A stretch of 29,015 nucleotides of DNA from Bdellovibrionales bacterium (GCA_020434645.1 JAGRAK010000001.1:1-29015), one strand, 5' to 3'; shown: positions 6,277 to 23,602, counted from the first letter of the stretch. Notes: generated by a model not told the origin, from the sequence alone. Translations and numbers: made by a program.

Positions 6277-7515
6277 ATGACAAATATCGGCGAACAAATA
6301 TTCGAATGGCTCCAGCTTCATAGTGGGAGCGAACTCGGCTACGGCTTTCTCATCGTACTGCTGTTTATCGTGCCCCGCTTATTATTAAAATTTGGCATAC
6401 CGATGGCGCTTACCGCATTTGTTCTAGGCCTAACAGTTAAAATTGGATTTAACTTTTATGATACCGATAACGTAATCCCCATTTTTTCTACTCTTGGCAT
6501 AATTTCGCTATTTCTATTTGCCGGACTTGAGGTCGACCTAATCGCACTCAGAAAAACCATTCGACCGATTGCAGGTCATATCGGTTTTCGCATCTTAGTT
6601 GTCAGCGTGCTTGCCGCTGTATTTTCAAGCTTGCACAGTCTGACCCCCGCAACAGCAATTGTGTTGGCTTTGGCTCTAGCGACTCCATCAACTGGTTTTA
6701 TTTTAGATACCCTAGCCTCATCTGCAATGTCTGACGGGCAAAAATTTTGGATAAAATTAAAAGCTATTTCTGCTGAGCTTGTCGCCCTCGGAGCACTTTT
6801 AATTATTTCACAGATGCGCAGTGTGGCCAGTCTTGTGGGCTCTCTTTTAATTATCGGCATTATGGTTCTCGTATTGCCTTACTTGCTTAAAAAATTGGCG
6901 GACACTTTAGAGAAATTAGCTCCAGGATCTGAGTTCAGCTTTATTATGATGCTCGCTATTATTTCAGGCCTCATCACTAAAAAATTGGGAGCCTATTATT
7001 TGGTTGGCGCGTTCTTAGTCGGCATGGCCGCCGGGCAATATAAACGTCAATCTCCAAGCGCAAGCACCGATCAAGTTCTTCAATCTATGAGATCATTTTC
7101 AACCTTCTTTATGCCGTTTTACTTCTTTAATTCTGGTCTCAAAATGCCATACGATGCTTTTTCATTAGATGCTCTTTATGTTGCCGCAATATTTTTACTA
7201 GTCTCAGCCCCAATCAAAGTGGGCACAATTATTCTTCATCGTCGAATGTCACTTGTTGAAAGCTGGAAGGACAGCCTAGCTATTGCCGTATCACTTATGC
7301 CGAATCTGATTTTCGGTCTCGTGCTTGCTGACATTCTGAAAAACAAAATGGGCCTATCTGTTTCAATTTACGGTGGATTAGTTATTTACACTTTGTTTAT
7401 AACAATGCTTTCACCCCTGCTTCTCCGCTTTATGCCTGGTGGTAAAAATCTTGAGCTCGTCACCAGCAGCCCTGAAGACATTGAGTTTGCTAACCATCGC
7501 GCAAAACTAAATTAG
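6277..7515 (+). CDS. Cation:proton antiporter (CPA2 / Na+/H+ exchanger family)
   Basis: About 12 hydrophobic segments. Motifs LGIISLFLFAGLEVDL, ALATPST, LVGAFLVG, FMPFYFFNSGL. No C-terminal TrkA domain. Confidence 0.88.
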   Translation: MTNIGEQIFEWLQLHSGSELGYGFLIVLLFIVPRLLLKFGIPMALTAFVLGLTVKIGFNFYDTDNVIPIFSTLGIISLFLFAGLEVDLIALRKTIRPIAGHIGFRILVVSVLAAVFSSLHSLTPATAIVLALALATPSTGFILDTLASSAMSDGQKFWIKLKAISAELVALGALLIISQMRSVASLVGSLLIIGIMVLVLPYLLKKLADTLEKLAPGSEFSFIMMLAIISGLITKKLGAYYLVGAFLVGMAAGQYKRQSPSASTDQVLQSMRSFSTFFMPFYFFNSGLKMPYDAFSLDALYVAAIFLLVSAPIKVGTIILHRRMSLVESWKDSLAIAVSLMPNLIFGLVLADILKNKMGLSVSIYGGLVIYTLFITMLSPLLLRFMPGGKNLELVTSSPEDIEFANHRAKLN

Positions 7516-7520
7516 TTTAT

Positions 7521-7537
7521 TTGGCACGCCTCTCGCA
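7521..7537 (+). promoter_or_regulatory. Putative sigma54 (-24/-12) promoter
   Basis: TTGGCACG-CCTC-TCGCA: GG at 7523-7524 and GC at 7535-7536, exactly 10 nt apart. One mismatch to TGGCACG-N4-TTGC. Confidence 0.5.
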
Positions 7538-7583
7538 ATGAATTCTATATGTAAACTCTAACTCGGCCACACTGGAGATAATC

Positions 7584-8096
7584 GTGAATTCATTGAAAAT
7601 TTTATTTGCTCTCATGACTTTATTTACATTCAATATTGCGCAGGCATCGAAAGGTGAGATTGTTAAGATCTGCTCGTTCACAGTTAAATTTCCGGGAGAA
7701 GCGTCGAGCGTTCCCACTGTTTATACAATCGTGAAGAGCGATAACCAACTCATTGCTAAAGCCACTCAAGTAGTCGAAAAGCATCCCGTCAATTTGCCAG
7801 ATGAGCCGGCAATTATCACGGAGTTCTCCGTTCGCGCAGACGTCTCACGAGATACACCTGATAGAAATTTAGCTGAAGACCTCATTGCAGGCACAATTGA
7901 ATTTTTAGACTCTGAGGAGTTTCGCGGCGAATTTTCAGTAGGTCTTGATTTAAATTCAATACGTCAGGCAAAAGTTTACCAGGTTGGTCAGTTCACTCAC
8001 ATGGGCGGCACTGTTATTATAGAAGCCCGAGATCAAAATGGCAAAGCCATGGGCTCGTTTGTTACTGGCTTTATACCTTTTGCTTGTGAAAATTAA
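7584..8096 (+). CDS. Hypothetical secreted protein
   Basis: GGAG RBS, GTG start, signal peptide ending AQA. No recognisable family. Confidence 0.7.
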   Translation: MNSLKILFALMTLFTFNIAQASKGEIVKICSFTVKFPGEASSVPTVYTIVKSDNQLIAKATQVVEKHPVNLPDEPAIITEFSVRADVSRDTPDRNLAEDLIAGTIEFLDSEEFRGEFSVGLDLNSIRQAKVYQVGQFTHMGGTVIIEARDQNGKAMGSFVTGFIPFACEN

Positions 8097-8109
8097 TTAT
8101 GAAAATGTC

Positions 8110-8754
8110 TTAAAAATCAAATATTTTTAAAAACCCCATGTTTATATATAATGGCATGGCTACAACTAGCATGACCTCATTCAATTTGACTTCTTCAAGT
8201 GAAGTTGTCAGCTCAGTCGTCGCCGAATATTGTTCTTTGTATTTTAGCGTATTGTACGAAATATCTACGCTCATGTATTTAAAAACATGCACTCCTAGCT
8301 TCATACCAAATCCTTTGCCAGAGTATTTGTCATCTTCATTTGCTCCTGAAGAAAACTGCATCTCAGATGAAAAAATATATTTTGGTATAATACGAAATCG
8401 ACCAGCATTAAAAAGTATAATTATACTCCCATCTACTTTATTTGCAGTGTCTACGTTAGCGGCAGCACCACCTGTTTTTGACTCTAGATCTATTAGTCCG
8501 AGTAAGTACTCGCCTCCTAGTCCAAATGATTTAGACGGAGTGGCCATAGCTATAGATGCGCCATACGTTAATCCTGCATAATCATGTTCTGTAGAGTCGG
8601 GCTGTGTTGCTTGCTCGCCACTCAAGCTCATTTGATAACCCACATTCGGCTCTATCAAAAAGTTTATGTAACCACTAGCCAAGGCTTGTGAGCCGAACAG
8701 TATTAAAAAGCTAAAAATAAAAAAATGTCTGAATTTTACCGTATGTATTGTCAT
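8110..8754 (-). CDS. Small outer-membrane beta-barrel protein (OmpA/OmpW-like)
   Basis: GGGGAG RBS 5 nt before ATG, signal peptide, amphipathic strands (IEPNVGY, GLTYGASI, GFGMKLG), ends in Phe. Overlaps the upstream gene by 44 bp. Confidence 0.72.
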   Translation of the reverse strand: MTIHTVKFRHFFIFSFLILFGSQALASGYINFLIEPNVGYQMSLSGEQATQPDSTEHDYAGLTYGASIAMATPSKSFGLGGEYLLGLIDLESKTGGAAANVDTANKVDGSIIILFNAGRFRIIPKYIFSSEMQFSSGANEDDKYSGKGFGMKLGVHVFKYMSVDISYNTLKYKEQYSATTELTTSLEEVKLNEVMLVVAMPLYINMGFLKIFDF

Positions 8755-10567
8755 CTGATCTCCCCATTAACAGCTGCCAGCTTTGCTGTGTGTTTTTTGC
8801 CCAGGATAGAACTCCCTCATTTAACGAAAAATGATTTTTTTCTCCTAATGAAAAATCCTGGTACCTATTTAAAAAAATAAATTTAAAATCCCGGGTAAGG
8901 TTCAAATAAAATGAAGCCTCTACGCCTAACCCTGCTTGGTAGTTTTCATTTAAGTCCTCATGGTAGTTTAAAGCAAGTACTCCCATAGCATAAAAAGTAA
9001 GTCGGTTCCATTCTACTGCGATACCCTTCGCATACTCATTGGTGAAATAATGTCGATTCGCAAGTCGGCTTGTCTTTGGCCGAGATATTTCTGAATTAAA
9101 CTTTGAGGAGGCTTGTTTATTTTCTTTAGTTACAGGATGTATAGTTAAAACCTTAAAAAGACTTAATGACTCTAGATCAAGACGATCATTTTGAAATCTA
9201 ATGTCTATCTTTAATGCCTCTAAGTCTGTATTTTCAACATAACTTGGACTCGGGTCTATTCGATCATGCAATACGAGTCGCCACTCAATGCCACCAAATT
9301 TTACATTTTCATCTTCGCCGTAATTTAGACCTATACGATGAGGTTTATGCCCAGCTTCAGGGCGCATTCGGGTAACTTGAAACTGCTTTTCTGGCATTAC
9401 TCTGCTTATCGTCGATCGATCCGCTAAAACTTGAGGCCTAAGCTGAACAGCCTCATCAGTTTCTACAAACGTCAGATAATCATTGAATCCGTCTAGAACT
9501 CTAGCCTGGGAGTCTGGCCCCAATGTTTTTGATACATTTGCCCAAGTTGACGGATAAGCACTTATTTTTTCAGTCAGAGCCGAGTATGCATTCCGCTCAT
9601 CTTGCGACATCCAAGCTAAACGTTGCCCACGTTTATTTTCTTTCGAAGGGTAATAATTGGTTTTGAGTACCAACCCGCTACTTTCTACTACAACTCGTAC
9701 AGTTTCGGCAGGGATAGTGAGTCTTGCAAATTGTTCTGATAAGTTTAATGTCGGTCGGCCGACCTCCATTAGTTTTAATAAATAGTACGAACAGTTCCCA
9801 TCGAGAAAATAGTAGCGAATACTCGTTTTTTGCACTTCCCATAAATGATTTAGTATTCGATCAATTTCTTTTTTTGTTAAATTAAGTTCATATTCAAATA
9901 TATCTCGAGTTTCTTGGTACCCATAGCGCAGAAGTTCATCATAGAAATAACTTGTTCCGAACTGACCAGCATACCCGCCAAATATGCCGTTAAATGCTAA
10001 TGACATCATAGACTCATCTGATGCAAAGTTAGCCGCATAACTAATAACTGTATGGAGAGAAGACTCAACCGGCTTTGAAGCATCATTTATTTTTAAGAAA
10101 GTATGAGAGAATAACGACAGACTCGACTCTAAGCTTTGTGCGGGGTAGACTAGTGACAACGAATTGGCATTGAGTTTACTCTTCCACTTATTCAATTCTT
10201 CACATTTATTTAACCCGGCAGCTGAATCTAAACCCTGCGACTCTGCTATCAACTGATATCGTGCCGGGTATTGACATATCCAGCGCTCGGCGTCTGATTC
10301 ACCAAACTGTTTTTCTATTGTGGCGTTCAATTCTGCTAGGGGGTCAACCAGACCTTTTTCACTAATAAAAAAATTGTCAGATAGAACTTTTGACTTTGTA
10401 CTGCCCAAAGAATTGGTTTCGTAATAATTAATTGTGCGCCACTGTCTTGAGTTAGCCAATGTTTTGAGTTCGGCTTCAGATAACGAGCGACCCAATGCAA
10501 TGTTCGCAAAACATAAAAAAAATAAAAAAGGAGCTAACCGCATCATAAAACGATAGGGCAGCTCCAA
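8711..10567 (-). CDS. DUF4105 / Lnb N-terminal-domain protein with C-terminal beta-barrel
   Basis: Signal peptide. Family motifs DPLAELNAT, CQYPARY, LFSHTFLKI, GIFGGYAG, RDIFEYELNL, YYFLDGNCSY. Beta-rich C-terminus ending QTFFYF. Start may be ATG 10546. Confidence 0.85.
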   Translation of the reverse strand: MELPYRFMMRLAPFLFFLCFANIALGRSLSEAELKTLANSRQWRTINYYETNSLGSTKSKVLSDNFFISEKGLVDPLAELNATIEKQFGESDAERWICQYPARYQLIAESQGLDSAAGLNKCEELNKWKSKLNANSLSLVYPAQSLESSLSLFSHTFLKINDASKPVESSLHTVISYAANFASDESMMSLAFNGIFGGYAGQFGTSYFYDELLRYGYQETRDIFEYELNLTKKEIDRILNHLWEVQKTSIRYYFLDGNCSYYLLKLMEVGRPTLNLSEQFARLTIPAETVRVVVESSGLVLKTNYYPSKENKRGQRLAWMSQDERNAYSALTEKISAYPSTWANVSKTLGPDSQARVLDGFNDYLTFVETDEAVQLRPQVLADRSTISRVMPEKQFQVTRMRPEAGHKPHRIGLNYGEDENVKFGGIEWRLVLHDRIDPSPSYVENTDLEALKIDIRFQNDRLDLESLSLFKVLTIHPVTKENKQASSKFNSEISRPKTSRLANRHYFTNEYAKGIAVEWNRLTFYAMGVLALNYHEDLNENYQAGLGVEASFYLNLTRDFKFIFLNRYQDFSLGEKNHFSLNEGVLSWAKNTQQSWQLLMGRSDDNTYGKIQTFFYF

Positions 10568-10589
10568 TTTACTTACAACAATAAGTTAA

Positions 10590-11051
10590 TTATATAACCG
10601 GTTGGCAAGAGTTTTTAAGTTCAGAACTTTGACCCATTACTTCAATCGTATTATTTAAAACAGATTGCGGGTCACGGTCGCCTGAATATATTTTAGTGAA
10701 CTTACCTTGTACTGTTTTTGAAAACTGGCTGTGATTTGGGCAACCCAAAATCATGGCATAATCATTCACAAACTGACCTTCGCCACGGCTCATGTCCTCC
10801 ATTAGATTGTCATAATTAGTATCCACGTAGTGACGAATTTCATCTTTTTTATTCTGAATGATGAACATCACATGATCACAACTGTCAGAAGTGCTACTAG
10901 ACGAAGACGTATACCATAATACGGCGTGACAATTTAAAGTCCCAGATTTCCATTTTCTAAACAATCCTTTCGATTGATTTTTTGCCTCAGCTAGTGATGC
11001 CATACCTATCAACATTGAAAGTGCTATTACTAAAGTCTTAATCCCTTGCAT
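10590..11051 (-). CDS. DUF3015-family secreted protein
   Basis: Start ATG 11051 after AAGGGAG. Signal peptide. SGTLNC, TSSSSSTSDSC and YVDTNYDNLMEDMSRGEGQFVNDYAMILGC match the DUF3015 pattern as I recall it. Confidence 0.7.
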   Translation of the reverse strand: MQGIKTLVIALSMLIGMASLAEAKNQSKGLFRKWKSGTLNCHAVLWYTSSSSSTSDSCDHVMFIIQNKKDEIRHYVDTNYDNLMEDMSRGEGQFVNDYAMILGCPNHSQFSKTVQGKFTKIYSGDRDPQSVLNNTIEVMGQSSELKNSCQPVI

Positions 11052-11117
11052 TTTGATCTCCCTTTTATTGCTTTTGAACTTTAATCGGCCATTATTAATC
11101 AAACTTGAGATTTATAT

Positions 11118-11954
11118 TTGAAAACATTTTTGGCAAAAATTTTTATTCTGACTTTCGTCCCGCTCGCTTTACTTATAAGCGGGTGTAACTCATTTTTTTA
11201 CTACCCCGACTCTCACCTCTACTATCCACCTGACGAGCATGGGTTGAGGTCTCCAAAAGAAATTGAGCTGTCGTCTAGCGACAATGTTACTTTGGCTGCC
11301 TGGCTCTTTAAATCCAATTCAAAAACTAAAGGAACCATTATTCAATTTCACGGCAACGCTCAAAACATGAGCAGCCACTATTCGCACCTTTACTGGGTTA
11401 CGGAGAAGGGATTTAATTTATTTACTTTTGACTATAGCGGATATGGCGTCAGTGAATCTAAACCCACTCCGCTTCGCACAGTACAAGACGGTGAAGTTGC
11501 ACTTAAGAAAGCCTATTCTGAGCACTTGGCTGCCGGCGGCGGTAAATTTATTGTCTACGCTGAAAGCTTAGGCGGTATAATTGCACTTCGCTCTTTAGAA
11601 AATGTAAATATACCCCTTGATCTTCTTGTCCTTGACTCTACTTTTTCGTCATACAAGCGAGTCGCTTATACTGTTACAAAATCAAACTGGCTCACCTGGA
11701 TGTTTAGCCCACTTGTTCGGGTTTTCACTTCTGATAAACTCGCGCCAACTCTATTTACAAAAAAAAGTTTTGCTCCAACAATTGTTATTCATAGTCAGTA
11801 CGATTCTGTTGTGCCTTACTCACAAGGGCTTCATCTTTATCAAGAACTGACCGAGCCCAAAGAATTATGGACACTTGAAAATAAAGGCCATGTCGGCACT
11901 TTTCAAAGTAATGAAAATAGAATTAAATTTATAGACCGAGTTGAGAAACTTTAA
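11118..11954 (+). CDS. Alpha/beta hydrolase lipoprotein (YfhR/BEM46/ABHD13-17-like)
   Basis: Lipobox LLISGC. Motifs FFYYPD, QFHGNAQN, FDYSGYGVS, AESLGG (Ser), HSQYDSVVP (Asp), GHV (His). Confidence 0.88.
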   Translation: MKTFLAKIFILTFVPLALLISGCNSFFYYPDSHLYYPPDEHGLRSPKEIELSSSDNVTLAAWLFKSNSKTKGTIIQFHGNAQNMSSHYSHLYWVTEKGFNLFTFDYSGYGVSESKPTPLRTVQDGEVALKKAYSEHLAAGGGKFIVYAESLGGIIALRSLENVNIPLDLLVLDSTFSSYKRVAYTVTKSNWLTWMFSPLVRVFTSDKLAPTLFTKKSFAPTIVIHSQYDSVVPYSQGLHLYQELTEPKELWTLENKGHVGTFQSNENRIKFIDRVEKL

Positions 11955-11961
11955 GGAGTTT

Positions 11962-12540
11962 ATGGTGAATGCGCTCATACTAGTGTTAATTTATAGTCTT
12001 TCGGCCTATGCACAATTTAACATTAAAGGGCTAGAGAATTTGGACAATCCTTTTAAAAAGGGCAATCCAATGTGCAATATTGATCTTGCTTATAAAGAAG
12101 GTCGCAATGAGGCCGCTGATTCGCATCGTTACACACCTGCCCCCAGTCGAATGTTAGCCGTTGGGCATGGCTGTAAACCAGAAGTTGTAGAAAAAATGAA
12201 GGCCGCCTTCGTCAAGGGAGCAAAAGATGCCGAGACGATGGGTAAAGTAGATGAATCTGTACAAATAACATTAGATGACGACACCAAGAAAAGCGTTGAA
12301 AAGTATTTGCCCACAGCAGGGGCTAAAACTGTTCTTACACCCAAGAAGAAACCGGCACATGGATGCCTAAAAGGCAGCAACGGAATTCTTTGCGGATGGA
12401 ACTGTGCAAAAGCATCTGACAGCCAAACCGTATTTTGCTCTAAAATACGCGATCATTTTTGTTTTGCTGATAAGATGAGTGGTGCTTGCGGAAAAAACTG
12501 CACCTCATCTAAGCTCGATGGGATTCGCTGTAGCAATTGA
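11962..12540 (+). CDS. Secreted cysteine-repeat hypothetical protein
   Basis: AAGGAG RBS overlapping the previous stop, ATG 11962, signal peptide. 10 Cys, 8 of them in the last 58 aa. Confidence 0.72.
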   Translation: MVNALILVLIYSLSAYAQFNIKGLENLDNPFKKGNPMCNIDLAYKEGRNEAADSHRYTPAPSRMLAVGHGCKPEVVEKMKAAFVKGAKDAETMGKVDESVQITLDDDTKKSVEKYLPTAGAKTVLTPKKKPAHGCLKGSNGILCGWNCAKASDSQTVFCSKIRDHFCFADKMSGACGKNCTSSKLDGIRCSN

Positions 12541-12577
12541 TAAGACTAGCGTTAGTTGGTTGCGTAGAAATCCGGTA

Positions 12578-12597
12578 ATTCTGTTCACCGGAGGAAA
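12578..12597. repeat. Direct repeat, copy 1 of 2 flanking the barrel gene
   Basis: ATTCTGTTCACCGGAGGAAA, 19/20 identical to 13378-13397. Confidence 0.85.
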
Positions 12598-12723
12598 CGT
12601 GGATGCGCGTGAAAACCGTGTATGCAATTTTAATTAATTCCGACTAGATGTTCAAAACCATTGATCTACAAACTTAGCCCTGCTAAAGGCTTCAGCTAAT
12701 CATTCGATAGCTCAGGAGGCTTT

Positions 12724-13371
12724 ATGCAAGTTCTTATTGCACTTTTAACGATTATTTCGTTTCGTTTGGCATTTGCCCAAACAAATCTTCAACCCGAAAA
12801 AGAACAGACATTACTCGCAGAAGCTAGAACTCCAAAAACTCAAAATCGTTCTGATGGATTACGACAACGCGACTTCCATATAGATGCGGGCAATGTAATT
12901 AACCTTATTCTTGGAGAGAACCTCAAATCAGACTCCGGAACAAATCGAGATAGAAATCGTCAAACTATTAATTTGGACGCTGGATGGAACTGGGGTAGTT
13001 TTGAAGCCGGGCCATTAATTTATTATGACAAATATGATGCAGATTCATATAAAGAAGAATCTCTTTCTCTAGGTGGACAAGTTGCTTACAACTTTATCCC
13101 AAACCAACCAGGGAATGATTTGGTTCCATATACCTATTTAAAACTTTATCACTTCGACTACGATTATGATCACAGTACCAATTTTTCATCTAGTTATACT
13201 GAAAAAGGTTTGGTTTATGAGATCGGCGGCGGTGTTAAATATTTTCCGTTTGGCGAATACTTAGCTCTAGTCGCCAGTGCTTATTACAAAGTTAACGATG
13301 CCGAACAAGATAGCGTAGACTACACCGTTAACGGGTTGAGAGCGCGCGGATCATTTTTAATTTATTTTTGA
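12724..13371 (+). CDS. Outer-membrane beta-barrel protein
   Basis: AGGAGG RBS, signal peptide, strands INLDAGWNWG, LGGQVAYNF, YEIGGGVKYF, C-terminal SFLIYF. Confidence 0.78.
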   Translation: MQVLIALLTIISFRLAFAQTNLQPEKEQTLLAEARTPKTQNRSDGLRQRDFHIDAGNVINLILGENLKSDSGTNRDRNRQTINLDAGWNWGSFEAGPLIYYDKYDADSYKEESLSLGGQVAYNFIPNQPGNDLVPYTYLKLYHFDYDYDHSTNFSSSYTEKGLVYEIGGGVKYFPFGEYLALVASAYYKVNDAEQDSVDYTVNGLRARGSFLIYF

Positions 13372-13377
13372 TAAAAG

Positions 13378-13397
13378 ATTCTGTTCATCGGAGGAAA
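13378..13397. repeat. Direct repeat, copy 2 of 2 flanking the barrel gene
   Basis: ATTCTGTTCATCGGAGGAAA, 800 bp from copy 1. Similarity continues as TGGTTGC versus CGTGGATGC. Confidence 0.85.
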
Positions 13398-13435
13398 TGG
13401 TTGCATCCAAATGTGCGACCTGACACATAGGTACC

Positions 13436-13455
13436 AAAATTGGCTCAGGCGGAGG
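13436..13455 (-). repeat. Duplicate of the tRNA-Asn 3' end (att-like repeat)
   Basis: AAAATTGGCTCAGGCGGAGG is identical (20/20) to 13647-13666, which covers the last 15 nt of the tRNA including CCA plus 5 nt of 3' flank. Confidence 0.92.
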
Positions 13456-13651
13456 TTGTGCAAGCGCAGTCAAATTGCCAGGGGCAATTTGATGTGATGC
13501 GCCCGCGAGCTTGCGAGAGGAGACTTGCGACGAACGCAAGCGCAGCGAATAGGACGAGAGGGCTAAACGCCCGATTCGTCCGCGTCCCGACAACGAGAGC
13601 CACGCAAAAAACGAAAATCATGCGCAAAAATAAAATGTGAAAAAAGAAAAT

Positions 13652-18146: not shown

Positions 18147-19259
18147 ATGGTTTTAAATGTAGACTCTTCAGCAGCTCACGATCGAGAGCAAAAAAGCGCA
18201 ATTTTTTTTCTAGCTTTAATATTTTTACCCACAATATTTTTTTTGCTTTCATACGCAGGTGACAATCGACGGCTTGATTTACATGATTATTTTCAAGATC
18301 ATTTCAAATTGTCAAAAACACTCTACAAACTCAACACCACACTCCAGGTGCAGTTGTTGAAGAGTAAAAATATTGGCAAAGTGCATTTGGGCAAAGACAA
18401 CTGGCTCTTTTTTATTAATCAAGTTAAGGTTAAAGAAAATTCATGGGATGACTTGTGGAGCATTCCAACCCCGACGGTAGCCGCGTTTTGGAGTGAGTAC
18501 TTAGAAAAAAGCTTTTCAAAACCATTCGGATTTAATGCCAAGTATCTCTTTGTCGTGGTGCCCAATAAAGAAACCGTATATCGAGAACGAACTCACTATA
18601 ATTTTAAAGAATTTAGATTTGCTGACCAAGGCAACTACGGCCACATACAAAGAACTGTACGCTCGATAAATCCAGAAGCGTCAATTGATCTTATCCCCAC
18701 GCTAATTGAGCATGGTCAGGATCTACCGACATATCACCCTGCTGATTCTCATTGGAACCACTGGGGTGCCTATTGGGCTCATATTGAAATATTGAAAAAG
18801 GTAAACCAGCTTCTTGGCAGCAATATCGAACCATTGCCAATAAACAGCCCTCGAATTGAGTGGAACGCACAGCACGACATGTTCGATATTATTAAAGAGC
18901 GAGGTCTAACCTCAATCGTCCCTCTTGCCGCCATTATGAATAAAAATATTCATGTCGATTTCGTTTACGACTGCTGTGATGAGGCCATAAAATCGAGAGA
19001 AGATAATTATCATGTTTTCGAAAACCCCCAAGCCCAATACGTAGTGTGGCTCATCGGTGACTCTTATATGAATTATCTGCGTAAATACATACCTACATAT
19101 TTTAAAAAAACCGTTGTCATTACTCATAGCCAAATTACCAGCGAAGATATTCAAAATGCGTATAGAGAAACTGGCCCTCCTGATCTCATCATTGAGGAGC
19201 GCTCAGAACGTGGTCTTTCAACGAAATTATCCTACTCAGACTACTCGCCTAAAAATTAG
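18147..19259 (+). CDS. AlgJ/AlgX-family SGNH-like periplasmic O-acetyltransferase
   Basis: N-terminal TM anchor; GKDNWLFF, VVVPNKE, DSHWNHWGA (Asp/His), IGDSY (Ser), IIEER. Confidence 0.85.
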   Translation: MVLNVDSSAAHDREQKSAIFFLALIFLPTIFFLLSYAGDNRRLDLHDYFQDHFKLSKTLYKLNTTLQVQLLKSKNIGKVHLGKDNWLFFINQVKVKENSWDDLWSIPTPTVAAFWSEYLEKSFSKPFGFNAKYLFVVVPNKETVYRERTHYNFKEFRFADQGNYGHIQRTVRSINPEASIDLIPTLIEHGQDLPTYHPADSHWNHWGAYWAHIEILKKVNQLLGSNIEPLPINSPRIEWNAQHDMFDIIKERGLTSIVPLAAIMNKNIHVDFVYDCCDEAIKSREDNYHVFENPQAQYVVWLIGDSYMNYLRKYIPTYFKKTVVITHSQITSEDIQNAYRETGPPDLIIEERSERGLSTKLSYSDYSPKN

Positions 19260-19323
19260 ATACTTAGGTGCCCCTGACCACATCATGTGAACTCGTTTTT
19301 AACTGTTGAAGCCATACCGCAGT

Positions 19324-19345
19324 GGTGCTAAGAGTTTTTAGCACC
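19324..19345. other. Inverted repeat immediately upstream of the GT4 gene
   Basis: GGTGCTAA-gagttt-TTAGCACC, an 8 bp stem ending 5 nt before ATG 19351. Confidence 0.55.
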
Positions 19346-19350
19346 GGGAT

Positions 19351-21354
19351 ATGGGGAATAAAAAAAGTTTACGTATTGCATTATGGGTTCATTCTGGCGC
19401 CTTTCAATTAAAGGCCACTCTCAATTCTATTTCGGCTGCTCTAGACGAGCTTTCAGGCACGCCCGTACAGATTTGTGTGTTTTTAAATCGCTTCTGCCAA
19501 ATTACTCCTCGTATTTTGAAAACATGGTCACAAGCTCATAAAATCATCTATTATAGTGACGCCCACTTACGGTCAAAAATAGTCAATAAGACTATAAAAA
19601 GTACTGCTGAAGATTTTTTATTCTTACTCAGTTCAGACGATTTAATTTCTAAAAATTGGTTAAAACTCGCAATACTAAATTCTGCTAAGGCGAAAACCAA
19701 CAACGAAATTCTACATTCAGATCAAATTTATTTTTGGGGCAAATCTAAATCTTTTTATAGAAACCCACACCAATCTGACATTTCTCTCAATCGACTTTTG
19801 TGGCGAAACTTTTGGACAGGTCCTGTATTTTTATCTCGCACACTTTTTCTTAAATGCCCGATTTCAAAAATTAGCGCTGGATTTTCAGACCCCTGGTGGA
19901 CATGGAGCTGTGATCTTATCTCGCGCGGAGGAACCCATCGGCCAATTGCTGAAACCTATAGCTTTCAGCACAGCGACTCACAAGATGCTAAGACATTCTT
20001 AATAGAACCTGAGTTGCGTGTCGGGCAGCCTTCAGTACTTTTTAATAAGAAAAGCATTGTTCAAGAAAAATCAAAAATGAAGCGCGTTGTCTTGCGCAAG
20101 TCTTCAGAAGAGAAAAGGACTCTCCAAAATATTCTAGATTGGGGTCAAACAGGCGCTGGCGATTATAGGTTCGAAAAAATAGACAATTTATATGGCACGT
20201 TTAAACAGATAAATTTTCCGGCGGATGAATCCAAAATGAGCGAGTTATTTTTTTCAATAAAAGCTCAGATCGGAGACGCTGTTGACTACCTGATCGTTAT
20301 GCACCAGTTGCGTCGTGGTGGATCAGAACTAGCCGCACTTCACCACATAAACGCATTAAGAAAAATACGACCGAGATGTCGCATAGTTATTTTAACCACA
20401 GCTCTAGCAGATCAAGACTGGTCTGAGCGCTTTCCAAAAGATGTACAAATTCTTAACTTTGGCCGAATAGCAGGGCAATTCTTAGACCGGCCTCAGCAGA
20501 GACAGTTGATGCTGCAGCTTTTCACTCATGTTAAACCCAAAGTCCTTCATGTCATTTACGCATGGAACGCATGGGATATCCTACGTGATGCCGGTGCTGC
20601 GATCAGAAATCACACGAAAATCTACGTCAGTCTCTATTGCCTAGACTATGATCAATCTGGGCGGGTGACAAGTTACGCCCATACGCACTTGCCCCATTGC
20701 GCACATCATATTGATTTGATTTTTAGTGATAATAAACCCTTTGTGAAGCACTTGCATGATCAACTCGGTATTCAAAATTCAAAGGTTACATTTCTTCCGA
20801 CATCGGTTGTCCCGCGAGAACTTCTGCCAGACAATAATAGTTCTTCAAAAAAAACTTTTCGTGTGCTGTGGGCTTCTAGAATTTGCTGGCAAAAAAATAT
20901 ACAGCTTGTTTTTGATTTAGCACGAATTCTAAAAGACTTTGAGTTTCACATGTATGGTGAAATTTCAGAGAACTTTGAAAATCTATATGAACAGCTACAC
21001 AGTCTGCCAAATTTAAAATACTTCGGGACATTCGACGGCTTCGAGTCTTTGCCTTACCAGCAATACGATGTTTACCTTCATACTTCTCGATGGGATGGCA
21101 CTCCAAATATTCTACTTGAAGCTGGGCAAAAGGGGCTGCCAATAATCACCTCTGCCGTTGGCGGTATACCTGACTTAATAAACGATAAAACCGGTTATCT
21201 CGCGAACACACGAAGCGATTATCTAAAGCACTTAATATCTGTATTTAGCCGACCCGAGGCGGCACATAAAAAGTCTCAGGCGTTACAAAAACTTATTCAA
21301 GCACGACATTCTGAAGCGGCCTACCTTTGCAATTTAAGAGAGGCTATAACATGA
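19351..21354 (+). CDS. Glycosyltransferase: degenerate GT2-like N-terminal domain fused to a GT4 (GT-B) domain
   Basis: C-terminal GGSELA and SRWDGTPNILLEAGQKGLPIITSAVGGIPDLI. N-terminal FLFLLSSDDL resembles a DxD region. Confidence 0.85.
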   Translation: MGNKKSLRIALWVHSGAFQLKATLNSISAALDELSGTPVQICVFLNRFCQITPRILKTWSQAHKIIYYSDAHLRSKIVNKTIKSTAEDFLFLLSSDDLISKNWLKLAILNSAKAKTNNEILHSDQIYFWGKSKSFYRNPHQSDISLNRLLWRNFWTGPVFLSRTLFLKCPISKISAGFSDPWWTWSCDLISRGGTHRPIAETYSFQHSDSQDAKTFLIEPELRVGQPSVLFNKKSIVQEKSKMKRVVLRKSSEEKRTLQNILDWGQTGAGDYRFEKIDNLYGTFKQINFPADESKMSELFFSIKAQIGDAVDYLIVMHQLRRGGSELAALHHINALRKIRPRCRIVILTTALADQDWSERFPKDVQILNFGRIAGQFLDRPQQRQLMLQLFTHVKPKVLHVIYAWNAWDILRDAGAAIRNHTKIYVSLYCLDYDQSGRVTSYAHTHLPHCAHHIDLIFSDNKPFVKHLHDQLGIQNSKVTFLPTSVVPRELLPDNNSSSKKTFRVLWASRICWQKNIQLVFDLARILKDFEFHMYGEISENFENLYEQLHSLPNLKYFGTFDGFESLPYQQYDVYLHTSRWDGTPNILLEAGQKGLPIITSAVGGIPDLINDKTGYLANTRSDYLKHLISVFSRPEAAHKKSQALQKLIQARHSEAAYLCNLREAIT

Positions 21355-23585
21355 CCATTCAGCCAAGAAAAATGCCGCTCGTATCTGTAATTGTACCCTC
21401 ATACAACCATGAGCAATACATTGAAGAGGCCATCTTTTCGGTTATTAATCAAACTTACTCAAATATTGAACTCATTATTGTCGATGATGGCTCTCACGAT
21501 AACTCTAGAGAGATTATTAAAAAAATAATTTTATCTCAAAAACAAAATGGCACTAAAATTAAGTTCATTAAACAAAGAAATTCTGGTGCTCATGCTGCCA
21601 TCAACAAGGGACTGCGACTTGCCCGCGGTGAATATTTAACCATACTCAACTCAGATGACCGTTTTCACCCTCAAAGAATTGAGCGCCTCGTGAGCTCCCT
21701 CAAAGGCCGTGATGAGGGTTTTGCGTTCACGCTTGTGCAGCACATTGACTCTTTAGGTGATCCGCTTGACTGCAAAAATCGAGCTGTGTTCGGTTACAAT
21801 ACGGCTCTCTCTGCAAGGCATGAATACCCAAGTCTCGGCTATGCCCTGTTAATTTCAAACATAGCCATTACTACCGGAAATTTTTTCTTTACTCGAAACC
21901 TATTTAAAAAAATAGGTCAATTTAAATCTTACCGGGTTGCTCATGACTGGGATTTTTTACTGCGCGCTCTTTACTACACCGAGCCGATATTTCTACAAGA
22001 AAAACTCATTGATTATCGCATTCATGAAACCAACACTGTCAGCTCAAGCGAAGAACTCTGCCAGTCGGAGTCACTCATTATACTGACAGATTATTTTAAA
22101 AGACTGCTCGACAAATCCCCACCCAATCACCTTTTGCCTTGCCCGCAATATTGGCCAAACTATTTTTATAGTTTCATTCGCAATACTTACTCCTCATTAG
22201 CACGTGAGGCACCCTATCGAGACTCTGGCATTATTTTTAATAGCCTCTCTCTTTTATTTTTAGAAATAATTAAATCCAAAGACCCATTAAAATTAATTCA
22301 TGCATTAACAGATTGCCAAACCGGTCACGAATTTGATTTCTTTCAGTGCGAGCCCTCACTTATAGGTCGACCTTTTGCTCACGTTAAGACTTCTACACGT
22401 GCCGGTCTTTATTTTGAGTCACAACTATTTAAAATAGCCAACTTACACAGTGCTCATGCAGAGTCTGGGCATTTTTACCGAGTGGTCATAACTGGCTCTG
22501 ACTTAAGCTCACTATTACATAACACTATGGTCGCTCTTTGTCATAATGGTCAAATCGCAGGACTCGCTTTACCATGCGACCTGAACAAGACCAAAATTCA
22601 ATTTTATGTGTACTTGCCCAAGGCTTATTTGAATGTTCCAAAATCTAAGCTAAATGTAGAGTTGTTAGTCCGCACAGGGGAATCTTCTTTCGAACATGTG
22701 CCCAAATCTTCTAATCAGCCAATTTCACTCGCTTATCTTCAAACATCTAATAAAGAATTAGTTTGGCGAAATGTGGTGTATCGCTTAAGTCCCCGTACTT
22801 ATCGCTGCCACATAACCTCGCTCAACTCACTCTACGAAGGCGTTGTATTTAATGGCTGGGTCGACAATAGCCAAAATAAAAAAATTACCACTGAAATTCG
22901 TTGTGTAATTAATGGTACCATGCTGCCTATTATTTCTTGGGTCCGGCACAACAACATTCGGCACAACAACGGCCTAATAGACAAAAATGACACATATCCA
23001 GAATTCACTTTGCATCTTCGTAAAAATGATATTGAAGAGTTCGGTCGTGAGCTGAATATCTCTATATTATCTTTTAATAGCGACCAAACGGCTGAGACTA
23101 TTGGCGCTTATAAACTCTCAAGCAATGGGTTTAAATATCATGTAACATGCAATACTTCGATGCCCACCCTAAATGATTTTTCATTCGCGGGAGAAGGTGT
23201 ATTGCTAAACAAACGAAGTCGACAGCGCTGGGATGTACAGCGGCCACACCTCCAAATGGGAGAAGTTAAAACCATGTGGGGCTTTATAGAAAAATTTGAA
23301 CGCATCAATAATGGCATTGCGGCTCAGGGCTGGTCGATAAATCCTCACTCTAAAAGAGCTCCTGATCAGATTTTAATTTGCAGTCATAATAAAGTTTTTG
23401 CATCCGTACGCCCCAATATATATCGAGAAGACATAATCAACTTACATAAAGTGACTCAACCAATTAATAGCGGGTTCTTTGCGCAATTTGAGCTTCCTTC
23501 TCCAGAAACTAAAAATCTGCGCATGGTGGCCATCTGGCATACTGGCGAAGCCATTTCGCTCCCTAAACTATATAACTCTCAATAA
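21351..23585 (+). CDS. GT2 glycosyltransferase with a long C-terminal accessory region
   Basis: Start ATG 21351 (ATGA overlap with the GT4 stop). VSVIVPSYNH, IIVDDGSHD, ARGEYLTILNSDD, HDWDFLLR in the first ~250 aa. Confidence 0.9.
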   Translation: MTIQPRKMPLVSVIVPSYNHEQYIEEAIFSVINQTYSNIELIIVDDGSHDNSREIIKKIILSQKQNGTKIKFIKQRNSGAHAAINKGLRLARGEYLTILNSDDRFHPQRIERLVSSLKGRDEGFAFTLVQHIDSLGDPLDCKNRAVFGYNTALSARHEYPSLGYALLISNIAITTGNFFFTRNLFKKIGQFKSYRVAHDWDFLLRALYYTEPIFLQEKLIDYRIHETNTVSSSEELCQSESLIILTDYFKRLLDKSPPNHLLPCPQYWPNYFYSFIRNTYSSLAREAPYRDSGIIFNSLSLLFLEIIKSKDPLKLIHALTDCQTGHEFDFFQCEPSLIGRPFAHVKTSTRAGLYFESQLFKIANLHSAHAESGHFYRVVITGSDLSSLLHNTMVALCHNGQIAGLALPCDLNKTKIQFYVYLPKAYLNVPKSKLNVELLVRTGESSFEHVPKSSNQPISLAYLQTSNKELVWRNVVYRLSPRTYRCHITSLNSLYEGVVFNGWVDNSQNKKITTEIRCVINGTMLPIISWVRHNNIRHNNGLIDKNDTYPEFTLHLRKNDIEEFGRELNISILSFNSDQTAETIGAYKLSSNGFKYHVTCNTSMPTLNDFSFAGEGVLLNKRSRQRWDVQRPHLQMGEVKTMWGFIEKFERINNGIAAQGWSINPHSKRAPDQILICSHNKVFASVRPNIYREDIINLHKVTQPINSGFFAQFELPSPETKNLRMVAIWHTGEAISLPKLYNSQ

Positions 23586-23602
23586 CTAAGGGCGGGTGAC
23601 TT

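What the first reader, a model, noticed from the sequence alone, without database searches (positions are those of the whole stretch)
8110..12540. DUF3015 + DUF4105/Lnb-like + barrel operon facing an ABHD-like hydrolase: candidate envelope acylation/deacylation system
Seen: three tightly packed reverse-strand genes (secreted DUF3015, 22 bp gap, DUF4105 protein with barrel, 44 bp overlap, small barrel). A lipoprotein Ser-Asp-His hydrolase starts divergently only 66 bp away, followed by a coupled Cys-repeat protein. All five are exported. Established: a DUF4105 protein (Lnb) is the lipoprotein N-acyltransferase of Bacteroides, and eukaryotic ABHD17 hydrolases are depalmitoylases. DUF3015 has no known function that I am aware of. 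Inference: an acyltransferase (His in FSHT, Cys in GNCS), a dedicated small substrate or partner, and an opposing acyl-hydrolase could form an undescribed reversible lipidation or outer-membrane remodelling module.
Basis: partly seen in the sequence, partly recalled or inferred. Interest (0 to 1): 0.72.

Follow-up and report, generated by a model that had tools for sequence, protein, structure and literature searches.

The report
Outer-membrane acyl-enzyme module with DUF3015
The window holds one copy of a widespread, unstudied three-gene envelope module: an abundant small periplasmic protein, an outer-membrane barrel carrying a Cys-His fatty-acyl enzyme domain, and a lipoprotein serine hydrolase, which probably moves or removes fatty acyl chains at the inner face of the outer membrane.

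Summary
All five ORFs exist and read as exported proteins.

**Conserved core (three genes)**
- DUF3015.
- A DUF7843 / Lnb_N (DUF4105) / DUF7840 protein. AlphaFold2 gives pLDDT 91.5: a permuted NlpC/P60 Cys-His domain on a 12-strand outer-membrane barrel.
- A lipoprotein alpha/beta hydrolase.

**Evidence for the linkage**
- DUF3015 lies next to the barrel enzyme in 139 of 145 loci from many phyla.
- The hydrolase orthologue is a neighbour in about 30-60% of loci, in at least five different gene orders.
- It was found elsewhere in 4 of 5 module-bearing genomes that lack it nearby, and in 0 of 10 related genomes without the module.

**Not part of the core**
The small OmpW-like barrel and the Cys-rich protein are lineage-specific. 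Each has a single known relative.

**Added here**
- A strong RNA hairpin follows DUF3015 in 81-87% of loci, whatever gene comes next.
- In this window the hairpin is a terminator-like stem plus U-run that buries the enzyme gene's start codons. DUF3015 is therefore probably made in excess.
- DUF3015's most conserved part is a Ser/Thr/Gly/Cys-rich N-terminal segment predicted to be disordered.

**Verdict**
- It is not an Lnb orthologue: the genome has Lnt, and the protein scores 14.7 bits against a 550-bit cut-off.
- Reversible acylation of DUF3015 is plausible but untested.
- This scan has met the same module on other DNA at least eight times.

The parts
10590..11051 (-). DUF3015 gene (153 aa from ATG 11051, RBS AAGGGAG upstream; the ORF could extend to TTG 11102). 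Signal peptide; then a low-confidence Ser/Thr-rich segment with 2 Cys; then a C-terminal helical bundle. This is a divergent subtype that lacks the canonical GCGLG / TTNGT..GTSGC motifs.
10513..10565 (-). Terminator-like RNA hairpin (stem 10530-10565) plus U-run (10513-10529), directly after the DUF3015 stop. It contains the GGAG and the TTG 10567 / ATG 10546 / ATG 10543 start candidates of the next gene. The U-run is translated as the signal-peptide core FLFFL.
   Evidence: MFE -22.2 kcal/mol, z -5.64, 0 of 200 shuffles as good. The same feature is seen in 81% of 124 junctions and after DUF3015 in every gene order.
8711..10567 (-). DUF4105-barrel gene (618 aa from TTG 10567; 611 aa from ATG 10546). 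DUF7843 10241-10462; Lnb_N / permuted NlpC/P60 9683-10195 with His155 (10103-10105) and Cys259 (9791-9793); helical linker aa 309-385; 12-strand barrel 8714-9352 ending FFYF.
11118..11954 (+). Lipoprotein alpha/beta serine hydrolase (Hydrolase_4). Lipobox Cys23 followed by NSFFYYP; HGN 78-80; Ser150 (11565-11567), Asp229 (11802-11804), His258 (11889-11891). Divergent from DUF3015 across a 66-bp spacer.
8110..8754 (-). Small 8-strand-type OMP (OmpW / OMP_b-brl-like), with a 44-nt overlap on the enzyme gene. A lineage-specific add-on, not a core part.
   Evidence: no homologue in 145 loci
11962..12540 (+). Secreted 10-Cys orphan protein, coupled to the hydrolase gene (ATG 11962, or TTG 11941 overlapping it by 14 nt). 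Not a conserved part of the module.

Best explanation
This is a three-component acyl-remodelling module of the outer membrane.

**The enzyme.** The 618-aa protein sits in the outer membrane through a C-terminal 12-strand barrel. It holds a permuted NlpC/P60 (LRAT / Lnb / Tox-Act1-type) Cys259-His155 domain at the periplasmic face. Inferred from its characterised relatives: Cys259 takes a fatty acyl chain from a glycerophospholipid of the inner leaflet, giving a thioester acyl-enzyme and a lysophospholipid.

**The partner.** DUF3015 is the enzyme's dedicated periplasmic partner and is made in excess. Its conserved but intrinsically disordered Ser/Thr/Gly/Cys-rich N-terminal segment is the part that engages the enzyme. 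Most likely it is the acyl acceptor or substrate. Less likely, it presents or regulates.

**The hydrolase.** The lipoprotein alpha/beta serine hydrolase, probably sorted to the outer membrane, either destroys the lysophospholipid by-product or takes the acyl group off again.

**Regulation.** A terminator-like hairpin after DUF3015 buries the enzyme gene's ribosome-binding site and start codons. This would keep the enzyme far below its partner in amount.

**Shown:** domain identities, the fold, conservation of the catalytic residues, the gene linkage, and the hairpin. **Inferred:** the periplasmic orientation, the lipid donor, the acceptor, and the hydrolase's substrate.
For: **Domains and fold**
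- Pfam hits for all three domains of the enzyme.
- AlphaFold2 pLDDT 91.5, pTM 0.88, 12 strands at 410-617.
- The barrel resembles Tsx, EstA, KdgM, NanC, NalP, FapF and LpxR, Z 11.8-14.9. Residues 133-311 resemble TseH (Z 9.2) and YiiX (Z 7.8).
- His155, Asn258 and Cys259 are conserved in 39-40 of 40 sequences.
- The Lnb model aligns 137-260 to its positions 31-148. This puts His155 and Cys259 at about Lnb His49 and Cys148, the residues named in PMC11573676.
- Relatives act on phospholipid acyl esters: Tox-Act1 and TseH are phospholipases that yield lysophospholipids, and Lnb is an N-acyltransferase (PMC12994826; PMC11573676).

**Linkage**
- DUF3015 is adjacent in 74 of 80 loci from many phyla and in 65 of 65 loci of the window's own phylum.
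- The phyletic profiles of DUF7840 and DUF3015 are nearly identical in 201 genomes.
- Only these three families recur across the neighbourhoods.
- The hydrolase is directly adjacent to 31 and within 5 kb of 19 more of 87 enzyme genes tallied. It is within 2 kb in 30 of 65 loci, in at least five arrangements.
- An unlinked orthologue is present in 4 of 5 module genomes. None was found in 10 module-less relatives.

**Stoichiometry**
- Hairpin after DUF3015: median z about -4, with 81-87% of cases below z -2 whatever follows. After the other genes the figure is 0-16%. In the window z is -5.64.
- Tandem DUF3015 copies are common.

**DUF3015**
- Residues 65-150 form a helical bundle at pLDDT 96-98. 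The mature N-terminal 45 residues have pLDDT about 43.
- That N-terminal segment is nevertheless the best-conserved part of the family.

**Hydrolase**
- Triad and HGN motif conserved in 56-57 of 57.
- Lipobox in 39 of 55 orthologues; the +2 residue is never Asp.

**Barrel topology**
- The long, partly conserved connections (435-446, 476-486) fall on the periplasmic side. Most extracellular connections are 2 residues long.
Against: - No experiment exists on any member of this architecture.
- The side of the membrane on which the enzyme domain sits is inferred, not shown.
- The window's own DUF3015 lacks the canonical GCGLG and TTNGT motifs. A strictly motif-dependent acceptor role would therefore have to have drifted in this lineage.
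- The two conserved Cys of DUF3015 are probably a disulfide, so they are poor S-acyl acceptors.
- About half of the loci have no hydrolase nearby, and one module genome (G024) has no orthologue with this query.
- The Nitrospira hydrolases lack a signal peptide.
- A stoichiometric inhibitor or a lipid-presenting accessory protein would also be adjacent and could also be made in excess.
Confidence: 0.45

Rival explanations
1. An outer-membrane phospholipid-homeostasis or degradation unit. The Cys-His domain is a phospholipase A acting on outer-membrane phospholipids, with water as acceptor. The hydrolase is the matching lysophospholipase. DUF3015 is not a substrate but an inhibitor, regulator or lipid-presenting accessory protein that keeps a dangerous periplasmic phospholipase in check, like an immunity protein.
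For: - The sister clade Tox-Act1, and TseH, are phospholipases that need immunity proteins (PMC12994826).
- Hydrolase_4 is the top Pfam match for the hydrolase. Many members of that family are annotated as lysophospholipases (from memory).
- Each enzyme paralogue has its own DUF3015.
- There are weak fold resemblances of the DUF3015 helical domain to the T6SS amidase immunity proteins Tai4 and Rap1a, at Z 3.2, which is within noise.
Against: - The best-conserved part of DUF3015 is a disordered Ser/Thr/Gly-rich segment, not the folded domain.
- Two to four tandem copies, and a hairpin that raises DUF3015 far above the enzyme, fit a substrate or cargo better than a 1:1 inhibitor.
- The fold matches are not significant.
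Confidence: 0.25
2. A threading or export device. The 12-strand barrel is a conduit for the disordered N-terminal segment of DUF3015. The segment either stays threaded, as RcsF does through OmpA/C/F, or is secreted unfolded, as FapC is through FapF. The fused Cys-His domain processes or lipidates it on the way, as FapD accompanies FapF.
For: - The barrel resembles FapF (Foldseek E 1e-5; Z 12.2).
- DUF3015 is abundant, small, and has a conserved disordered Gly/Ser/Thr/Asn/Gln-rich segment close to the mature N-terminus.
- A cysteine-enzyme plus barrel plus small-subunit layout recalls the Fap system (from memory).
Against: - Tsx, KdgM, NanC and autotransporter barrels match the barrel equally well.
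- DUF3015 carries a confidently folded helical domain, with an extra Cys pair in the window's copy. It is unlikely to cross a 12-strand pore.
- No amyloid-type repeats are present.
- This reading gives no role to the hydrolase.
Confidence: 0.1
3. A type Va autotransporter-like surface enzyme. The N-terminal Cys-His domain is the passenger, displayed on the cell surface through the C-terminal 12-strand barrel. There it attacks foreign (prey or host) or environmental lipids, as the EstA/EstP esterases do.
For: - N-terminal enzyme plus C-terminal 12-strand barrel is the autotransporter layout.
- EstA, NalP, AIDA-I, BrkA, Hbp and EspP barrels match at Z 9-14.6. EstP and others appear.
- The window's phylum, Bdellovibrionota, includes predators. 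The phylum name comes from the titles of related loci.
Against: - No Pfam Autotransporter hit.
- The 24 residues before strand 1 are coil, not the pore-filling helix of autotransporters.
- Both partners carry ordinary Sec or lipoprotein signals and should stay in the periplasm.
- The module is just as common in non-predatory Nitrospira, Marinobacter and sulfur oxidisers.
- The long conserved barrel connections lie on the periplasmic side.
Confidence: 0.08
4. An Lnb orthologue: the cell's lipoprotein N-acyltransferase, adding the third acyl chain to all lipoproteins.
For: The Lnb_N domain is present with conserved His and Cys. Lnb is the only characterised DUF4105 protein (PMC11573676).
Against: - NF051878 scores 14.7 bits against a cut-off of 550.
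- There are no transmembrane helices; the protein has an outer-membrane barrel instead.
- The same genome encodes a canonical Lnt, 232.7 bits against a cut-off of 132.9.
- The module is absent from about half of the phylum's genomes.
- Lipoprotein N-acylation takes place at the inner membrane (established knowledge).
Confidence: 0.03

Closest known systems
Lnb, lipoprotein N-acyltransferase of Bacteroides (PMC11573676; NCBIfam NF051878; Pfam Lnb_N, formerly DUF4105)
   Same: The same catalytic domain family. A permuted NlpC/P60 fold with His before Cys. His155 and Cys259 align to about His49 and Cys148. It acts in the periplasm, on the periplasmic side of a membrane.
   Different: Lnb is 398 aa with five inner-membrane helices and replaces Lnt. 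This protein is 618 aa, with an extra N-terminal DUF7843, a helical linker and a 12-strand outer-membrane barrel. It coexists with Lnt and always travels with DUF3015. It fails the equivalog cut-off by a wide margin.
Tox-Act1 and TseH, T6SS lipid-targeting permuted NlpC/P60 effectors (PMC12994826; PDB 6v98)
   Same: Tox-Act1 is reported as the sister clade of DUF4105. Cys-His chemistry on phospholipid acyl esters. TseH is the best solved-structure match to the enzyme domain (Z 9.2). Each has a small dedicated partner protein encoded beside the enzyme.
   Different: Those are secreted toxins with immunity proteins in conflict loci. This one is a resident outer-membrane protein of the producer, in a housekeeping-type context, with a hydrolase partner.
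LRAT / PLAAT (H-RAS-like suppressor) acyltransferase-phospholipases
   Same: Permuted NlpC/P60 with an 'NC' active-site motif. A thioester acyl-enzyme formed from phospholipid, then transfer to an acceptor or to water.
   Different: They are eukaryotic, anchored by a single helix, and have no barrel and no DUF3015. The relationship is at superfamily level only.
Outer-membrane lipid enzymes and esterase autotransporters (OMPLA/PldA, PagP, LpxR, EstA)
   Same: Lipid-active enzymes anchored in the outer membrane. The barrel is like the 12-strand barrels of LpxR (Z 11.8) and EstA (Z 14.6).
   Different: In OMPLA, PagP and LpxR the active site is part of the barrel. In EstA a GDSL passenger is displayed on the surface. 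Here a separate Cys-His domain is fused at the N-terminus and most probably stays periplasmic.
The Lnt / LplT-Aas logic in E. coli (an acyl transfer that produces lysophospholipid, paired with a lyso-lipid salvage activity)
   Same: Pairs an enzyme that consumes a phospholipid acyl chain with an activity that deals with the lyso-lipid. This is an inferred analogy.
   Different: The proteins and the membrane are different. Here the second activity would be a hydrolase, not a re-acylase. Untested.

Membership tests
Lnb (lipoprotein N-acyltransferase, NF051878 equivalog) | Scores above the curated equivalog cut-off (550 bits) | tested here: not met
   14.7 bits, E 0.01, partial match 137-260
Lnb (lipoprotein N-acyltransferase, NF051878 equivalog) | Inner-membrane anchor of about five transmembrane helices beside the DUF4105 domain (PMC11573676) | tested here: not met
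   The AlphaFold2 model has a cleavable signal peptide, no TM helices, and a 12-strand beta-barrel at 410-617
Lnb (lipoprotein N-acyltransferase, NF051878 equivalog) | Catalytic His and Cys of the DUF4105 domain | tested here: met
   His155 and Cys259 conserved in 39 of 40. They fall at about model positions 49 and 147-148
Lnb (lipoprotein N-acyltransferase, NF051878 equivalog) | Stands in for a missing Lnt | tested here: not met
   TIGR00546 lnt at 232.7 bits (cut-off 132.9) on contig C66 of the same genome
Pfam architecture DUF7843 - Lnb_N - DUF7840 | All three domains above their gathering scores, in this order | tested here: met
   63.8 / 132.9 / 114 bits against cut-offs of 25 / 22.2 / 27. 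The same architecture is seen in 38 of 40 homologues
Permuted NlpC/P60 (LRAT-like) superfamily | Papain-like fold with His N-terminal to Cys; Cys in an 'NC' motif at a helix start | tested here: met
   His155 precedes Asn258-Cys259. Helix 259-270. TseH Z 9.2 and YiiX Z 7.8 over residues 133-311
Permuted NlpC/P60 (LRAT-like) superfamily | Third polar residue of the triad (Asn66 in Lnb, Glu81 in TseH) | tested here: inconclusive
   The family consensus has N in 'NY.A' about 20 residues after the His. The window has Ser there, and no coordinates were available to check the geometry
DUF3015 (PF11220) | Scores above the gathering cut-off | tested here: met
   53 bits against 25, but only model positions 58-142
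DUF3015 (PF11220) | Canonical N-terminal motifs GCGLG and TTNGT.GNQTFGI(S/T)SGTSGC | tested here: not met
   The window has NCHAV...YTSSSSSTSDSC instead. This subtype is shared with L088 and L004:5528
Type Va autotransporter | Pfam Autotransporter beta-domain, and a pore-filling alpha-helix before strand 1 | tested here: not met
   No PF03797 hit. Residues 386-409 are coil. Only the 12-strand barrel shape is shared
Alpha/beta hydrolase, Hydrolase_4 type | Nucleophile elbow Ser, Asp, His triad and an oxyanion HG motif | tested here: met
   PF12146 at 46.1 bits. Ser150, Asp229, His258 and HGN78-80 conserved in 56-57 of 57
ABHD17-type depalmitoylase | Orthology or close similarity to eukaryotic ABHD17, and protein thioesterase activity | not tested
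   No ABHD17 sequence or model was compared. The shared HGNA motif is a recollection only

The most novel reading that the evidence does not exclude
A Lgt/Lnt-independent, reversible protein lipidation cycle at the outer membrane. The barrel-anchored Cys-His enzyme moves a fatty acyl chain from an outer-membrane phospholipid onto the disordered Ser/Thr/Gly/Cys-rich N-terminal segment of the abundant periplasmic protein DUF3015, as O-, S- or N-acyl. This tethers DUF3015 to the membrane. The lipoprotein serine hydrolase takes the acyl chain off again.
Probability: 0.25. Interest if true: 0.85.

Novelty: new variant of a known kind. Interest (0 to 1): 0.62.

Why it matters
The only DUF4105 enzyme studied so far, Lnb, filled a long-standing gap in Bacteroidota lipoprotein synthesis. 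This second architecture is far more widespread. DUF3015 has 3,490 clusters at 50% identity. Hosts include Nitrospira, Marinobacter, sulfur oxidisers and Bdellovibrionota. No paper in the searchable library deals with this architecture.

It places an acyl-enzyme at the outer membrane with a dedicated protein partner and a hydrolase. That points to an unknown route of outer-membrane lipid or protein-acyl remodelling. The module is small, its catalytic residues are obvious, and culturable hosts exist, so the question can be tested directly.

Tried and rejected
- **The search for related loci with the 40-sequence alignment failed** because no stretch was conserved enough. It worked with 9 sequences.
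- **Rosetta-stone search.** The one 767-aa 'DUF3015 + DUF4105-barrel fusion' among 3,490 DUF3015 clusters (P0180) does not translate from its contig. It comes from a spliced gene model that merges two genes. Rejected.
- **Fold of DUF3015.** No meaningful PDB match, best Z 5.0. AFDB returns only DUF3015 relatives.
- **Rfam** on 7500-13500: nothing.
- **RNA-seq.** No RNA run was listed. Only DNA runs from activated sludge and wastewater hold the locus, so the terminator could not be checked on reads.
- **Literature.** No paper mentions DUF7840, DUF7843 or PF13387. The only DUF3015 mention is a row in a Leptospira expression table.
- **Cys-rich protein.** No Pfam, NCBIfam, Atlas feature or fold match. 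Its single relative is not next to a hydrolase.
- **Small barrel as a core part.** Rejected: 0 of 145 loci. It is nevertheless a real gene, because one relative keeps it with the same 44-nt overlap.
- **The simple terminator scan missed the hairpin** because of a bulge in the stem.
- **Not possible.** A complex model of DUF3015 with the enzyme, and inspection of model coordinates for orientation or a pore plug.

Full report
**1. What is in the window**

- On the minus strand: 10590-11102 (likely start ATG 11051, with AAGGGAG 7 nt upstream), 8711-10567 and 8110-8754.
- On the plus strand: 11118-11954 and 11941-12540.

Pfam gives:
- DUF3015 for the first: 53 bits against a cut-off of 25, covering only model positions 58-142.
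- DUF7843 + Lnb_N (formerly DUF4105) + DUF7840 for the second: E 2e-17, 1e-38, 1e-32.
- Hydrolase_4 / Abhydrolase_1 for the fourth.
- Nothing for the small barrel or the Cys-rich protein.

By inspection, all five N-termini read as signal peptides. The hydrolase has a lipobox (LISG-C23). The flanking genes (RmuC, S28 peptidase, Na/H exchanger, S8 subtilase) are unrelated.

**2. The enzyme**

A 40-sequence alignment gave an AlphaFold2 model with pLDDT 91.5 and pTM 0.88. Its parts are:
- a signal peptide;
- a small N-terminal domain with a nearly invariant Cys98/Cys122 pair;
- an alpha/beta domain at 133-308;
- a helical linker at 309-385;
- twelve strands at 410-617, ending in FFYF.

Structure searches:
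- The C-terminal part matches 12-strand outer-membrane barrels: Tsx Z 14.9, EstA 14.6, KdgM 14.1, NanC 13.6, NalP 12.9, FapF 12.2, LpxR 11.8.
- Residues 133-311 match the permuted NlpC/P60 proteins TseH (Z 9.2) and YiiX (Z 7.8).

His155 (FSHT) and Asn258-Cys259 (GNCS) are conserved in 39-40 of 40 sequences. The partial match to the NCBIfam Lnb model (137-260 on model positions 31-148) puts them at about Lnb His49 and Cys148. Those are the residues named in PMC11573676; the Cys was shown there by mutation to be essential.

All characterised relatives work on fatty acyl esters of phospholipids.
- Lnb N-acylates lipoproteins.
- Tox-Act1, reported as the sister clade of DUF4105, and TseH are phospholipases that release lysophospholipids (PMC12994826).

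The barrel's long and partly conserved connections (435-446 with Asp435, and 476-486) fall on the periplasmic side if the usual OMP rule holds that both barrel ends are periplasmic. Most outward connections are only two residues long. I therefore place the enzyme domain in the periplasm, docked on the barrel rim. This is an inference, because no coordinates could be inspected.

**3. It is not Lnb**
- The equivalog model scores 14.7 bits against a cut-off of 550.
- There are no transmembrane helices.
- The same genome, a 2.2-Mb, 78% complete MAG, encodes a canonical Lnt at 232.7 bits against 132.9.
- The genome has a second, barrel-less DUF4105 protein on another contig.

**4. The conserved module**

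Neighbourhoods of three distant homologues all showed DUF3015 directly in front of the enzyme gene. This held for both paralogous copies in two of those genomes.

I then collected two sets of loci:
- 80 loci from GTDB species genomes. They include Nitrospira, Marinobacter, Bdellovibrionota, Nitrospinales, sulfur-oxidising gammaproteobacteria and alphaproteobacteria.
- 65 loci from the window's own phylum.

Results:
- A DUF3015 profile finds a neighbour in 74 of 80 and in 65 of 65 loci. Half of the six misses are cut by contig ends.
- In 201 genomes of the phylum, DUF7840 (107 genomes) and DUF3015 (95 genomes) have almost identical per-family tallies. The difference comes from one family that also holds short stand-alone DUF7840 barrels.
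- An all-against-all clustering of neighbourhood ORFs finds only three families that recur across lineages: the enzyme (83 loci), DUF3015 (75) and the hydrolase (52). The other large clusters are shadow ORFs or synteny confined to the Nitrospira-type loci.

**5. The hydrolase belongs to the module**

Orthologues of the window's hydrolase (E 1e-31 to 1e-52) lie directly downstream of the enzyme gene, often overlapping it. This is seen in Marinobacter, other gammaproteobacteria, alphaproteobacteria, Nitrospinales and Bdellovibrionales. Weaker relatives (1e-12 to 1e-17), without a signal peptide, lie 0-3 kb downstream in many Nitrospira.

In the own phylum it is within 2 kb in 30 of 65 loci, in at least five arrangements:
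- DUF3015 > enzyme > hydrolase;
- enzyme > DUF3015 > hydrolase;
- hydrolase > DUF3015 > enzyme;
- two divergent layouts, one of which is the window's.

Linkage that survives this much reshuffling argues for function rather than inheritance of a single operon.

The phyletic pattern agrees:
- Among five complete module-bearing genomes without an adjacent hydrolase, four have an orthologue elsewhere (168-179 bits, 36-37% identity).
- Ten high-quality genomes of the same order or family that lack the module have none. Their best hits are 43-54 bits at 26-29% identity.
- These genomes are kin, so this is not a statistical test.

Other features of the hydrolase:
- Ser150, Asp229, His258 and the HGN oxyanion motif are conserved in 56-57 of 57 sequences.
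- 39 of 55 orthologues have a lipobox, followed by a conserved x-x-(F/L)-(F/Y)-x-P.
- The +2 residue is never Asp. By the E. coli rule this means sorting to the outer membrane. That is an inference.
- No characterised orthologue was found.

**6. The two other genes are local additions**
- Neither the 214-aa barrel nor the Cys-rich protein has a homologue in any of the 145 loci.
- Each has one relative among 5.8 billion proteins.
- The barrel's relative (55% identity) again follows a DUF4105-barrel gene (51% identity) with the same 44-nt overlap. It is therefore a real, translationally coupled, lineage-specific add-on.
- By language-model features and predicted structure it is a generic OmpW / OMP_b-brl-type barrel.
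- The Cys-rich relative is not preceded by a hydrolase.

**7. DUF3015 and its hairpin**

The DUF3015 model (44-sequence alignment) has two parts:
- a confident helical bundle at residues 65-150 (pLDDT 96-98), with no solved-structure match (best Z 5.0);
- a 45-residue mature N-terminal segment at pLDDT about 43.

Across 133 cluster representatives, that N-terminal segment is the most conserved part of the family. GCGLG lies 2-12 residues after the signal-peptide cut. Then comes LAATTNGT.GNQTFGI(T/S)SGTSGC, with 80-99% column identity.

The window's copy and its nearest relatives have replaced this with a plain Ser/Thr run before the second Cys. The Ser/Thr-rich character is kept but the motif is not.

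A note from an earlier window of this scan led me to test for a hairpin after DUF3015.
- In 124 DUF3015 > enzyme junctions, the 80 nt after the stop codon fold far better than shuffles: median z -4.0, with 81% below -2. For 80 nt inside the enzyme gene the figure is 6%.
- The hairpin goes with DUF3015, not with the junction. It is present when the hydrolase follows (86%) or when something else follows (87%). It is absent between tandem DUF3015 copies (7%) and after the enzyme and hydrolase genes (0-16%).
- In the window it is a stem at 10530-10565 followed by a U-run: MFE -22.2 kcal/mol, z -5.64, and 0 of 200 shuffles fold as well.
- The window's hairpin contains the GGAG and all three candidate start codons of the enzyme gene. 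Its U-run is read as the FLFFL core of the signal peptide.

The simplest reading is that DUF3015 is made in large excess and the enzyme is attenuated both by termination and by an occluded start. No RNA data could be found to check this.

**8. Mechanism**

What is shown: the domains, the fold, the catalytic residues, the three-way linkage and the hairpin.

My best reading (0.45):
- The enzyme is an outer-membrane-anchored, periplasm-facing acyl-enzyme that takes an acyl chain from an inner-leaflet phospholipid.
- It acts on the disordered N-terminal segment of its abundant partner DUF3015, most likely as acyl acceptor.
- The lipoprotein hydrolase removes the lysophospholipid by-product or reverses the acylation.

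The rivals are given with their tests in the Rival explanations section:
- a phospholipase plus lysophospholipase pair with DUF3015 as regulator (0.25);
- threading or export of DUF3015 through the barrel (0.10);
- an autotransporter-like surface lipase (0.08);
- an Lnb orthologue (0.03).

**9. Novelty**

No paper in the searchable library treats this architecture, DUF7840, DUF7843 or the function of DUF3015. The catalytic domain family is known, so I class it as a new variant of a known kind.

This scan has already met the module in at least eight other windows, two of them followed up with the same general conclusion. This report adds:
- the hydrolase's co-occurrence and co-loss;
- the many gene orders;
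- the finding that the hairpin follows DUF3015 in every order;
- the contrast between the conserved, disordered N-terminal segment and the folded domain;
- the demotion of the small barrel and the Cys-rich protein.

Noticed in passing
L002 (own genome, contig C95) 2-1186 and 1196-1522: A second DUF4105 / Lnb_N protein in the same genome. It is cut at the 5' end by the contig edge, has 394 aa, and has a helical tail instead of a barrel. A 108-aa secreted protein with no family follows it 10 nt downstream. This may be another enzyme-plus-small-partner pair.
   Followed up: partly
window 18147-25069 (+): A polysaccharide modification cluster: an AlgX-like SGNH domain protein, a GT1 glycosyltransferase, a GT2 glycosyltransferase and an MBOAT (AlgI-like) O-acyltransferase. 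It is probably an exopolysaccharide O-acetylation system and is unrelated to the finding.
   Followed up: partly
window 12724-13371 (+): Another 215-aa exported protein ending in LIYF, which looks like a small outer-membrane barrel. It has no Pfam hit and no homologue in any related locus.
   Followed up: partly
Genomes of family f10 (genera g82, g53), e.g. G147:C2:175950-176582: Short stand-alone DUF7840 barrels (open frames of about 250-270 aa), with no Lnb_N domain in the frame and no DUF3015 in the genome. These account for the only family where the DUF7840 and DUF3015 tallies differ.
   Followed up: no
L068, L077, L084, L049 (Nitrospira loci): The hydrolase next to the module in Nitrospira starts directly at the conserved 'LFVYHP' motif, with no signal peptide or lipobox. 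The gammaproteobacterial and Bdellovibrionota orthologues do have them. Either the cell compartment differs or these are a different paralogue.
   Followed up: partly
L103 4001-6413 (NCBI GCA_016746295.1): A 767-aa 'DUF3015 + DUF4105-barrel' protein in the databases comes from a spliced gene model that merges the two adjacent genes. It does not translate from the DNA and should not be read as a natural fusion.
   Followed up: yes
L027, L030, L033, L035, L036, L086, L089, L093, L127, L129, L162: Two to four tandem DUF3015 copies per enzyme gene. No hairpin lies between the copies; there is only one, after the last copy.
   Followed up: yes
window 8110-12540: The locus is held by DNA runs from activated-sludge and wastewater metagenomes and one soil metagenome. 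This indicates the organism's habitat.
   Followed up: no
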